This document shows positions 711 to 1,223 of a stretch of 10,773 nt of DNA, piece after piece. Below the pieces are notes generated by a model. It made no database searches and was not told the origin of the DNA. It saw only the letters and a program-made list of their open reading frames with translations. The translations under genes were made by a program, and so were the position numbers. Within the stretch, counting starts at the first letter, position 1; each line of letters begins with the position of its first letter. The DNA is taken from the IMG/VR virus record IMGVR_UViG_2681813269_000008, one strand, 5' to 3'. The DNA is from a virus (taxonomy: Duplodnaviria; Heunggongvirae; Uroviricota; Caudoviricetes).

Positions 711-1148
711 TACGGTCCTCCTCCCCGGAGGGGGGCATTTCATTATTTTTCTAATCGTTACTGGTGAGAAGGCGGAAGAAAAAGCCAGTTCTTCGCCCCT
801 AAATAACAGCATGATTCCAGTCCATGCAAAATCTGATTTCCAGCTCACACATACCGAGCGCTGTACAAAAAACCGCCAGCCAAGGCAGTTAAGAGTGTGT
901 TCCCGGGGTTTGCTTAGAATATTTTGTAAGTTGTCCGAAGAGATATTTACAACACCAGAATGATGAATCATCAGTCCCCTGCCAGAGGTTCACTACGTAA
1001 CCTGACCGACAATGCACCATTCTGGTGCTGAAAAAAGAGCACTGGAACTGCAACAAAACAACATCACAGAACAGGAGATGGTAAGGAGTCAGACATTCCC
1101 ACACAATATTGTGTCAGTGCAAATAACAACCTTCGTCTCAAATCTCGC

Positions 1149-1223
1149 TGGAGCGGGCAGCGGGAATCGAACCCGCATCATCAGCTTGGAAGGCTGAGGT
1201 AATAGCCATTATACGATGCCCGC
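1149..1223 (-). tRNA. tRNA-Gly (anticodon TCC)
   Basis: Minus-strand sequence GCGGGCATCGTATAATGGCTATTACCTCAGCCTTCCAAGCTGATGATGCGGGTTCGATTCCCGCTGCCCGCTCCA folds as a cloverleaf. Anticodon loop CTTCCAA, T-loop GGTTCGATTCC, encoded CCA. It closely resembles enterobacterial tRNA-Gly2 as I recall it. Confidence 0.9.

What the first reader, a model, noticed from the sequence alone, without database searches (positions are those of the whole stretch)
1140..1160. Repeat boundary falls exactly at the 3' end of tRNA-Gly
The duplicated block begins at position 1148/6601, one base beyond the encoded CCA of tRNA-Gly. The two flanks on the other side (1012-1147 versus 6415-6600) are unrelated. tRNA 3' ends are classic sites for integrase-mediated recombination and moron exchange, so this junction may mark a site-specific exchange point rather than a random breakpoint.
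Basis: partly seen in the sequence, partly recalled or inferred. Interest (0 to 1): 0.55.

Follow-up and report, generated by a model that had tools for sequence, protein, structure and literature searches.

The report
Repeat ends at conserved tRNA cassette edge
The duplicated block stops exactly at the end of a phage tRNA-Gly gene because two old, unrelated spacer sequences meet a conserved four-tRNA cassette there; this is ordinary prophage mosaicism plus insertion-sequence scrambling, not an integrase site.

Summary
A perfect 3993-bp direct repeat (1148-5140 = 6601-10593) starts one base past the CCA of tRNA-Gly(UCC), and the outer flanks are unrelated. The position is not random, but the duplication did not create it. 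Both junctions already exist elsewhere. Flank B|tRNA-Gly is the common holin-to-tRNA spacer of E. coli/Shigella lambdoid prophages. Flank A|tRNA-Gly is a second allele found 100% identical in EIEC and Shigella-like genomes. The 312-bp Met/Ile2-Arg-Thr-Gly array is identical in loci carrying all four combinations of flank (A/B) and upstream module (R/other). That pattern indicates homologous exchange inside the cassette. Thirteen unrelated flank classes all diverge at this same nucleotide, and the array's 5' edge is also a mosaic joint. No integrase and no displaced tRNA fragment accompany flank A or B. The joints private to this window are illegitimate and IS-associated: IS2|IS600 at 5255/5256 and an 81-bp deletion at 5139/5140. 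One relative (S. flexneri) does carry a glyU-island-type integrase directly after the same phage tRNA-Gly. That locus shows what an integrase junction looks like, and the window lacks those features. Verdict: ordinary, low interest.

The parts
253..468 (-). Class II holin gene (71 aa), the first gene of the lysis cassette downstream of flank A.
   Evidence: ORF list. PF04971 Phage_holin_2_1 is assigned to the identical gene in L125-L134. Annotated as class II holin in L001 and L003.
469..1147 (-). Spacer allele A between the tRNA array and the holin, with no convincing gene. It is a composite. 460-849 is about 88% identical to the holin-upstream region of many tRNA-less E. coli prophages, and 944-1147 is about 80% identical to phage SerU-LTIIb next to its tRNA-Gly.
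   Evidence: 100% contiguous with tRNA-Gly in EIEC genomes H63-H71, in L003/L004 and in L125-L134. The 98-aa ORF has no Pfam hit and there is no Rfam hit. Terminator-like hairpins lie at 535-509 and 890-871.
1148..1148 (.). First shared base, which is G in the RNA sense immediately after CCA. It is shared by 9 of 13 unrelated flank classes.
1149..1459 (-). tRNA cassette, copy 1, transcribed Met/Ile2(CAU) 1383-1459, Arg(UCU) 1305-1381, Thr(UGU) 1227-1302, Gly(UCC) 1149-1223. Spacers are 1-3 nt and every tRNA has an encoded CCA.
   Evidence: ARAGORN and Rfam tRNA. tRNA-Gly is 75/75 identical to K-12 glyT and tRNA-Thr is 74/76 identical to thrU, with homology confined to the mature tRNA sequence. 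RefSeq calls the CAU tRNA Ile.
1460..1559 (-). Leader upstream of the array ('up1'), with a promoter-like site at 1498-1469 and bounded by a terminator-like hairpin at 1573-1552. It is part of the 412-bp stretch shared at 100% by several prophage types.
   Evidence: Mosaic joints fall at 1460 (versus L003) and near 1559 (versus L002, L015, L053, L027).
1148..5139 (-). Repeat copy 1 (R). It contains the tRNA array, an ORF6N antirepressor-like gene (1649-2212), an isrK/C4 RNA module, Q antiterminator (2693-3079), RusA (3069-3440), an 85-aa ORF (3440-3697), a DnaB-type helicase (3694-5085) and the 3' stub of the upstream replication gene.
   Evidence: Self-BLAST. Gene calls and Pfam on the identical loci. 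Rfam hits.
5139..5140 (.). Joint of an 81-bp deletion private to copy 1. It removes about 50 bp of phage DNA plus the outer 31 bp of the IS2-family terminus, with 1-nt microhomology.
   Evidence: The joint was not found in IMG/VR.
5140..5255 (-). Fragment of the right end of an IS2-family element.
   Evidence: Identical to the full IS2-family copy in L128. 94.8% identical to the annotated IS2 in L004.
5256..6419 (+). IS600 lacking its first about 100 bp. Its left edge is an illegitimate joint to the interior of IS2 and its right terminus (...ACACCTCA) is intact.
   Evidence: The IS2|IS600 joint was not found in IMG/VR or in the GTDB representative genomes.
6420..6600 (-). Spacer allele B. This is the tRNA-proximal 181 bp of the common 300-bp holin-to-tRNA-Gly spacer, cut by the IS600 insertion.
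   Evidence: Contiguous with the array in L001 (97%), L002, and L015 (100%, with the holin intact). The same IS600|B joint is present at 100% in L107, L062 and L032.
6601..10593 (-). Repeat copy 2 (R), identical to 1148-5140. Its tRNA array lies at 6602-6912.
10594..10674 (.). The 81 bp present only in copy 2. It comprises the last about 50 bp of phage replication-gene DNA plus the intact outer terminus of the IS2-family element, which starts at 10643/10644.
10643..10773 (-). Right end of the IS2-family element, running off the window. 10674-10773 is identical to 5140-5239.

Best explanation
The window is decayed lambdoid prophage DNA from a Shigella-like genome. Between the Q/antirepressor region and the lysis genes it carries a compact four-tRNA cassette (Met/Ile2-Arg-Thr-Gly). 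In E. coli/Shigella prophages this cassette is a conserved module bordered by interchangeable, unrelated sequences. Flank A (688 bp to the holin) and flank B (300 bp to the holin) are two long-standing alleles of the spacer downstream of tRNA-Gly. The cassette plus 100 bp of leader is 100% identical among prophages that differ on either side, so RecA- or phage-recombinase-mediated homologous exchange inside it re-assorts the flanks. Any identity tract that runs through the cassette must then stop where homology stops, which is the base after the tRNA-Gly CCA. In this genome a block of more than 4 kb (array through helicase, plus the same IS2 insertion joint) is present twice without a single difference, once behind flank A and once behind flank B. 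This is therefore a recent duplication or ectopic recombination product. Its private joints are illegitimate and IS-associated (IS2|IS600 at 5255/5256 and the 81-bp deletion at 5139/5140). Shown here: the anatomy, that both tRNA junctions pre-exist, the four-combination pattern, and the absence of integrase signatures. Inferred: the order of events. One plausible order is tandem duplication of an IS600-B-R-IS2 segment, then array x array exchange with an A-type prophage, then the 81-bp deletion. R1 x R2 recombination would collapse the structure to the single-copy arrangement seen in complete genomes.
For: Perfect 3993-bp repeat plus a further 100 identical bp beyond an 81-bp indel. The closest non-identical relatives of R are only 93-96% identical, so zero differences imply a recent event. 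Both copies share the same IS2|phage insertion joint, so they descend from one sequence. The B|tRNA-Gly junction is contiguous in L001, L002 and L015. The A|tRNA-Gly junction is contiguous at 99-100% in nine EIEC genomes and in ten complete 4.8-5.0 Mb IS1-rich genomes. The single-copy arrangement holin-A-R-81bp-IS2 is 100% identical to window 1-5140 and 6601-10773. IS600-B-R-81bp-IS2 is 100% contiguous in L107 and L062. All four combinations occur with an identical 312-bp array: (A,R) 14 loci, (A,other) 9, (B,R) 2, (B,other) 4, confirmed on N-free contigs. Thirteen unrelated flank classes diverge at this nucleotide, with trailer identity 26-28% from the first bases onward. The 5' end of the array is also a mosaic joint. 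There is no displaced tRNA fragment and no integrase. Homologous recombination between phages and defective prophages as a source of mosaicism is established (PMC3945230).
Against: The two-copy arrangement itself was not found in any other assembly. Its private joints are absent from IMG/VR and from the GTDB representative genomes, and a chimeric ORF spanning them is not on record. Its reality and history therefore rest on this one sequence. The four-combination argument shows that exchange occurred in the cassette, but it does not show which enzyme did it. It also does not explain how the unrelated flanks first came to abut the tRNA so precisely, with no class sharing more than 1 nt beyond CCA. 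The proposed order of events needs at least three steps and is not uniquely determined. The window ends before the structure does.
Confidence: 0.75

Rival explanations
1. Integrase-mediated site-specific exchange. A tyrosine integrase uses the 3' end of the phage tRNA-Gly as an att site and swapped flank A for flank B, or loaded one of them as cargo.
For: tRNA 3' ends are the classic targets of island and prophage integrases (PMC4383910). The breakpoint is conserved to the nucleotide across many flank classes. In L090 and L137 (S. flexneri) the identical array is followed, 114 nt after CCA, by a 534-aa tyrosine integrase (PF00589, 2e-17). The DNA after CCA there is 94% identical to the DNA that follows chromosomal glyU in E. 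coli. The site can therefore apparently be used.
Against: No integrase lies in the window or within 12-25 kb in loci with flank A or B. The integrases of related prophages sit at yecE. No displaced tRNA-Gly fragment was found at up to 3 mismatches in 16 nt, 5 in 25 nt or 10 in 45 nt. Flanks A and B show no similarity to the glyU-island end. The 5' end of the array is an equally sharp joint. Flank A is only 688 bp and is itself a mosaic.
Confidence: 0.05
2. Assembly artefact. The tandem two-copy structure is a mis-join of reads from two separate prophage remnants, one A-R and one IS600-B-R, that share 4 kb of identical sequence.
For: The A-R and B-R arrangements each exist alone in other assemblies. 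The joints that link them in this window were found nowhere else. IS-rich Shigella genomes are difficult to assemble.
Against: The linker is not a simple collapse or expansion. It contains two specific illegitimate joints (the 81-bp deletion and IS2|IS600) that an assembler would not invent. The copies differ by the 81-bp indel, so they are distinguishable. Even if this rival is true, the boundary at tRNA-Gly would still be explained in the same way, as the A/B heterology at the cassette edge.
Confidence: 0.1
3. Gene conversion between two independent neighbouring prophages rather than duplication. Two prophages with 93-96% similar replication/Q regions were homogenised, and the tract stopped at the heterologies.
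For: The identity tract ends exactly at heterologies on both sides, namely the A/B flanks and the 81-bp indel. Relatives of R are typically 93-96% identical.
Against: Identity resumes at 100% beyond the 81-bp indel and includes the same IS2 insertion joint. An IS2 inserting twice at the same nucleotide is unlikely, so conversion would have had to copy the IS2 joint as well. That is hard to distinguish from duplication.
Confidence: 0.12
4. The tRNA cassette, or single tRNA genes, is itself mobile by a precise mechanism such as capture of processed tRNAs by reverse transcription or homing-endonuclease-driven copying. Its edges would then coincide with mature tRNA ends for mechanistic reasons.
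For: Homology to host glyT and thrU is confined exactly to the mature tRNA sequence including CCA, with 1-3 nt spacers in the phage array. Both array edges are mosaic joints. None of the 13 flank classes shares more than 1 nt of trailer.
Against: No reverse transcriptase or homing endonuclease lies adjacent in the window. Purifying selection on tRNA sequence, with unconstrained flanks, predicts the same pattern. E. coli tRNA genes encode CCA anyway.
Confidence: 0.04

Closest known systems
tRNA clusters in the Q-to-lysis interval of lambdoid and Stx phages (ileZ-argN-argO upstream of stx in 933W-type phages, from my own knowledge), and the LT-II prophages such as SerU-LTIIb, KU052038
   Same: The position and orientation are the same: downstream of the Q antiterminator, upstream of the holin, and co-oriented with the late operon. 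The slot just after the tRNAs carries variable cargo. LT-II A/B toxin genes lie 480 nt after this same tRNA-Gly in L010, and SerU-LTIIb has tRNA-Gly/Thr with a flank A-like trailer.
   Different: The tRNA set differs (Met/Ile2, Arg, Thr, Gly), with Gly and Thr being exact or near-exact copies of host glyT and thrU. The window carries no toxin or other cargo gene in either spacer.
Mosaic module joints of lambdoid phages generated by homologous recombination at shared sequences, including exchange with defective prophages (PMC3945230; modular and mosaic theory of Botstein and Hendrix, from my own knowledge)
   Same: Unrelated segments abut sharply at gene boundaries. A conserved stretch acts as a linker. 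All combinations of the neighbouring modules exist.
   Different: Here the linker is an RNA-gene cassette kept identical (312-412 bp at 100%) rather than a protein-coding gene or short boundary sequence. The recombinants sit in IS-eroded prophage remnants.
tRNA-gene att sites of tyrosine integrases, meaning genomic islands and prophages as defined in Islander (PMC4383910)
   Same: The junction falls at the 3' end of a tRNA gene. One relative (L090/L137) shows a genuine-looking example with a glyU-island-type integrase next to this phage tRNA-Gly.
   Different: In the window there is no integrase, no displaced tRNA fragment and no island-end homology. The tRNA is phage-borne, not chromosomal.
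IS-mediated genome rearrangement in Shigella and EIEC (IS1, IS2, IS600, IS4 expansions, from my own knowledge)
   Same: An IS2-family fragment and a truncated IS600 form the linker between the copies. Related loci are littered with IS1, IS2, IS600 and IS4.
   Different: The private joints are illegitimate (interior-to-interior, 0-1 nt microhomology). They are not clean transposition products or IS x IS homologous crossovers.

Membership tests
Integrase att junction in a tRNA gene (Islander-type island or prophage end) | A tyrosine integrase gene close to the tRNA-proximal junction. | tested here: not met
   The window ORFs and their Pfam assignments on identical loci are holin, ORF6N, Q, RusA, DnaB helicase and IS transposases only. 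Integrases of related prophages lie at the yecE end, more than 10 kb away. The positive control L090 has the integrase 114 nt from CCA.
Integrase att junction in a tRNA gene (Islander-type island or prophage end) | A displaced fragment or direct repeat of the tRNA 3' part marking the other end of the inserted DNA. | tested here: not met
   Only the two full tRNA-Gly genes match a 16-nt or 25-nt 3'-end probe at up to 3 mismatches in the window. None was found in L015, L001, L003, L004, L126 or L128 at relaxed stringency.
Integrase att junction in a tRNA gene (Islander-type island or prophage end) | A crossover inside the tRNA gene, with element-borne sequence restoring the 3' end. | not testable with these tools
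   The array is 100% identical in all partners, so no polymorphism marks a crossover point.
Lambdoid mosaic joint maintained by homologous recombination in a conserved linker | Each junction allele exists contiguously in independent genomes, so it was not created by the local event. | tested here: met
   B junction in L001, L002, L015, L107 and L062. A junction in H63-H71, L003, L004 and L125-L134.
Lambdoid mosaic joint maintained by homologous recombination in a conserved linker | All four combinations of left and right modules occur around an identical linker (four-gamete criterion). | tested here: met
   With an identical 312-bp array: (A,R) 14 loci, (A,other) 9, (B,R) 2, (B,other) 4. Confirmed on contigs without Ns.
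Lambdoid mosaic joint maintained by homologous recombination in a conserved linker | Dependence on RecA or a phage Rad52-like recombinase. | not testable with these tools
   This needs genetics. 312-412 bp of perfect identity far exceeds the minimal length for RecA-dependent exchange (established knowledge, not tested here).
Simple tandem duplication | One novel head-to-tail joint, with the outer flanks of both copies native to the unit. | tested here: not met
   If the IS2|IS600 joint (5255/5256) is the novel joint, the left copy should be preceded by IS600-B. It is preceded by flank A and the holin. At least one further exchange and an 81-bp deletion are required.
IS600 / IS2 transposition product | Complete element with both termini and a target-site duplication. 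| tested here: not met
   IS600 lacks about 100 bp at its left end. The IS2 fragment is 116 bp and lacks its outer 31 bp in copy 1. Only the IS600 right terminus and the copy-2 IS2 terminus are intact.

The most novel reading that the evidence does not exclude
The 3' end of the phage-borne tRNA-Gly(UCC), which ends in the same GCCCGCTCCA as chromosomal glyU, may be a working secondary attachment site for glyU-island-type tyrosine integrases. Island DNA could then be loaded site-specifically into the high-expression cargo slot of lambdoid late operons. Some of the 13 unrelated flank classes, possibly including A or B, would be eroded relics of such events.
Probability: 0.06. Interest if true: 0.5.

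Novelty: new member of a known kind. Interest (0 to 1): 0.2.

Why it matters
It matters mainly as a caution. A repeat boundary that coincides to the nucleotide with a tRNA 3' end looks like an att site, and tRNA hits near prophage features are often read that way (for example in bioRxiv 10.64898/2026.05.13.724894). Here the tRNAs are phage cargo in the late-operon leader. The sharp edge is the limit of a conserved cassette that serves as a homologous-recombination linker. The slot after this cassette holds LT-II toxin genes in a relative, as the corresponding slot holds stx in Stx phages. Knowing that the cassette promotes flank exchange is therefore mildly useful for understanding how toxin and other cargo modules move between prophages. 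The S. flexneri locus with a glyU-type integrase on the phage tRNA-Gly is a small lead worth a look.

Tried and rejected
(1) I tried to find the source genome, or any second assembly with the two-copy structure, by exact search for its private joints. The 81-bp-deletion joint and the IS2|IS600 joint were absent from IMG/VR. The IS2|IS600 joint was absent from the GTDB representative genomes. The chimeric 72-aa ORF across the joints is not on record.

(2) L032 seemed to place IS600 next to flank A. It is a scaffold with single-N joins at exactly those points, so I discarded its adjacency. Only its N-free IS600-B-array-leader piece was used.

(3) BLAST suggested a 10-bp direct repeat flanking the 81-bp indel and 97% identity beyond it. 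Direct alignment shows this is an alignment artefact. Microhomology is 1 nt and identity beyond is 100%.

(4) I first placed the IS2|IS600 joint at 5252/5253 with TTT microhomology, from memory of the IS sequences. Comparison with real IS2 (L128) and IS600 (L004) copies puts it at 5255/5256 with essentially no microhomology.

(5) Rfam searches of flank A and of the full B spacer at E<=1 gave only noise. The 98-aa ORF in flank A has no Pfam match.

(6) I checked whether flank A carries a Pas sRNA, reported to sit next to holin genes. The paper gives no coordinates or sequence in its text, so this was not pursued.

(7) A simple tandem duplication was considered and rejected, as set out in the membership test.

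(8) Literature searches for a prior description of this specific Met-Arg-Thr-Gly array as a recombination linker found nothing specific.

Full report
WHAT IS IN THE WINDOW

All phage genes read on the minus strand. From high to low coordinates, one unit is as follows:
- the right end of an IS2-family element;
- about 50 bp of a replication-gene stub;
- a DnaB-type helicase;
- an 85-aa ORF;
- RusA;
- a Q antiterminator;
- an RNA module with Rfam hits to isrK, C4, c4-a1b1 and sRNA-Xcc1;
- an ORF6N antirepressor-like gene;
- a terminator-like hairpin and a promoter-like site;
- four tightly packed tRNA genes, Met/Ile2(CAU), Arg(UCU), Thr(UGU) and Gly(UCC).

This unit occurs twice. Copy 1 (1148-5140) is followed by 688 bp of non-coding 'flank A' and then a class II holin (253-468). 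Copy 2 (6601-10593 and beyond) is followed by 181 bp of 'flank B', then an IS600 lacking about 100 bp of its left end (5256-6419), then a 116-bp piece of the IS2-family element (5140-5255) that abuts copy 1.

CHECK OF THE OBSERVATION

Self-BLAST gives 1148-5140 = 6601-10593, 3993 bp with no mismatch or gap. tRNA-Gly occupies 1149-1223 and 6602-6676 on the minus strand, so its CCA is at 1149-1151 and 6602-6604, and the repeat starts one base further on.

The outer flanks are at chance identity. A word-7 BLAST of all of flank A against the complete 300-bp B spacer finds nothing better than E=0.07. The boundary therefore does not move under gapped alignment.

The repeat does not stop at 5140. Copy 1 has an 81-bp deletion relative to copy 2 (10594-10674). 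After it, 5140-5239 equals 10674-10773 exactly, up to the end of the window.

WHERE THE SEQUENCE BELONGS

The region matches lambdoid prophages of E. coli. Examples are phiP27 (94%), Stx-phage replication/Q regions (86-91%) and EIEC prophages at yecE (95-97%).

A look-up of the exact RusA protein returned ten complete or near-complete 4.8-5.0 Mb genomes rich in IS1, IS2, IS4 and IS600. I infer these are Shigella, probably S. sonnei; the organism names were not shown. In four of them, window 1-5140 and window 6601-10773 are each 100% identical to one and the same single-copy locus, holin-flank A-R-81 bp-full IS2.

Two IMG/VR contigs (L107, L062) carry IS600-flank B-R-81 bp-IS2 at 100% identity over 4.4-4.9 kb. 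Each half of the window therefore exists on its own elsewhere. The linkage of the two halves was not found elsewhere.

BOTH tRNA JUNCTIONS PRE-DATE THE DUPLICATION

Flank B is the tRNA-proximal part of the ordinary 300-bp spacer between tRNA-Gly and the class II holin. It is contiguous with the array in E. coli VL40 (L001, 97%) and FDAARGOS_943 (L002). In L015 the holin, the full spacer, the array and 100 bp of leader are uninterrupted, and 593 bp of that stretch are 100% identical to the window.

Flank A is contiguous with the array at 99-100% in nine EIEC genomes and in the Shigella-like genomes. Its tRNA-proximal 200 bp are about 80% identical to phage SerU-LTIIb across the junction.

In a sample of 120 IMG/VR loci that contain the 3' half of this tRNA-Gly, about 80 have B or a B-like trailer and about 15 have A. 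Neither junction was made by the event that duplicated R. This excludes a simple tandem duplication with its novel joint at the tRNA.

THE CASSETTE IS A RECOMBINATION LINKER

The 312-bp array is identical to the window's in loci of all four kinds: (A,R) 14 loci, (A,other upstream) 9, (B,R) 2 and (B,other) 4. Several also share the next 100 bp at 100%. All four combinations of two flanking markers around an identical segment is the classical signature of exchange within that segment.

The array's other edge behaves the same way. Against the EIEC yecE prophage, homology (99.3% over 252-1460) stops one base past the 5' end of the Met/Ile2 tRNA. Against other prophages it stops near 1559, at a terminator-like hairpin.

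Clustering the 150 nt downstream of tRNA-Gly in 135 loci gives 13 unrelated classes. The mean identity of their trailers is 26-28% from the very first bases. The only shared feature is a G at +1 in 9 of 13 classes.

The slot holds different things in different phages:
- LT-II enterotoxin A and B genes in L010;
- a TerB-like gene in three classes;
- holins of three Pfam families.

The tRNA-Gly is 75/75 identical to K-12 glyT and the tRNA-Thr is 74/76 identical to thrU. Phage-host homology is confined to the mature tRNA sequences.

TEST OF THE INTEGRASE HYPOTHESIS

Island integration into a tRNA gene leaves a tyrosine integrase near one end and a displaced fragment of the tRNA at the other (PMC4383910). 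Neither is present here.

No integrase occurs in the window or in 12-25 kb around flank A or B in relatives. Their integrases sit at the yecE end. No partial tRNA-Gly copy was found with relaxed matching in the window or in seven related loci.

A useful positive control turned up. In L090 and L137 (the latter S. flexneri) the same array is followed, 114 nt after CCA, by a 534-aa tyrosine integrase (PF00589). A 95%-identical homologue in E. coli sits directly after chromosomal glyU, next to xdhABC and type III secretion genes. The DNA after the phage tRNA-Gly CCA is 94% identical to the DNA after the glyU CCA. That is what an integrase-type junction at this nucleotide looks like. Flanks A and B show no similarity to it.

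HOW THE TWO-COPY STRUCTURE AROSE (INFERENCE)

The two copies share the same IS2|phage insertion joint, so they descend from one sequence. With zero differences in about 4.1 kb, against 4-7% divergence from the nearest relatives, the event is recent.

The joints private to this window are illegitimate:
- IS2 interior joined to IS600 interior at 5255/5256;
- an 81-bp deletion across the IS2 terminus at 5139/5140, with 1-nt microhomology.

A consistent path has three steps:
1. Tandem duplication of an IS600-B-R-IS2 segment, creating the IS2|IS600 joint.
2. Homologous exchange in the array or R with an A-type prophage, putting flank A and the lysis genes on the outer copy.
3. The 81-bp deletion.

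R1 x R2 recombination would then yield exactly the single-copy arrangement of the complete genomes. Other orders, or gene conversion between neighbouring remnants, are not excluded. An assembly artefact is possible but unlikely, given the specific illegitimate joints and the indel that distinguishes the copies.

Whichever history is right, the identity tract has to end at 1148/6601, because that is where the A and B alleles lose homology.

COMPARISON WITH WHAT IS KNOWN, AND VERDICT

tRNA clusters between Q and the lysis genes, cargo genes just after them, sharp mosaic joints at gene ends, homologous exchange between phages and defective prophages (PMC3945230), and IS scrambling of Shigella prophages are all known. 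This is a further example of these, using a particular Met/Ile2-Arg-Thr-Gly cassette.

Its suggestion that the point is non-random and recurrent is correct. Its mechanism is not supported for this window. Interest is low. The small leads are the glyU-type integrase on a phage tRNA-Gly in S. flexneri and the unexplained precision (CCA+1) with which unrelated trailers abut the tRNA.

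Noticed in passing
L090:3470-6310 and L137:715-3417 (related loci, not in the window): In S. flexneri-type contigs the identical four-tRNA array is followed, 114 nt after the tRNA-Gly CCA, by a 534-aa tyrosine integrase (PF00589 plus DUF6538), 121-bp tandem repeats and iteron-like TTAACTTAAAG repeats. The same element sits after chromosomal glyU in E. coli (L139). It looks like a glyU-island end recombined onto a phage tRNA-Gly.
   Followed up: partly
window 2250-2665 and 7703-8118 (minus strand): Rfam gathering-score hits to isrK (2576-2652), C4 antisense RNA (2467-2550), c4-a1b1 targets (2613-2665) and sRNA-Xcc1 (2250-2333) lie between the Q gene and the ORF6N antirepressor-like gene. 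This is a P1/P7 immI-like or Gifsy-1 IsrK-like RNA control module, present in both copies.
   Followed up: no
window 5139/5140 versus 10594-10674: An 81-bp deletion private to copy 1 removes about 50 bp of phage DNA and the outer 31 bp (terminal inverted repeat) of the IS2-family element, with 1-nt microhomology. That IS2 remnant is therefore immobile.
   Followed up: yes
window 5255/5256: An illegitimate joint between the interior of an IS2-family element (116 bp retained) and the interior of IS600 (first about 100 bp missing). It was not found in IMG/VR or in the GTDB representative genomes.
   Followed up: yes
L010 (IMGVR_UViG_2903015146_000007), 480-1600 nt downstream of its tRNA-Gly: Type II heat-labile enterotoxin A (PF01375, 2e-98) and B (PF06453, 6e-32) genes sit in the slot immediately after the same tRNA-Gly and ahead of a holin. 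This parallels stx after ileZ-argN-argO in Stx phages.
   Followed up: partly
L136 (SerU-LTIIb) 6116-6269 versus window 1147-1302: SerU-LTIIb has two tRNA-Gly genes in a local duplication. The gene next to one of them is called tRNA-Arg(tct) but is 96.8% identical to the window's tRNA-Gly-tRNA-Thr(tgt) pair, so it looks like an anticodon-switched Thr tRNA.
   Followed up: no
L002 6784-6854 (FDAARGOS_943): In place of tRNA-Gly the array carries a 71-nt gene annotated as tRNA-Val that matches the Gly 3' part only with 9 of 45 mismatches. It is a divergent or decaying cassette member.
   Followed up: no
window 1148 and the equivalent base in 135 related loci: The first trailer nucleotide after the tRNA-Gly CCA is G (RNA sense) in 9 of 13 otherwise unrelated flank classes. 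Host glyT has A there. It could be a processing determinant or the true edge of the cassette.
   Followed up: partly
window 460-849, especially the hairpin at 509-535 (minus strand): The holin-proximal part of flank A is about 88% conserved upstream of class II holin genes in many tRNA-less E. coli prophages and ends in a strong terminator-like hairpin just before the holin start. It is possibly a small RNA gene of the Pas type, reported next to holin genes (bioRxiv 10.64898/2026.05.13.724894). There is no Rfam match.
   Followed up: partly
window 1383-1459 and 6836-6912: The CAU-anticodon tRNA is called Met by ARAGORN but Ile in RefSeq annotations of the related loci. It is probably a lysidine-modified tRNA-Ile2 that reads AUA.
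   Followed up: no
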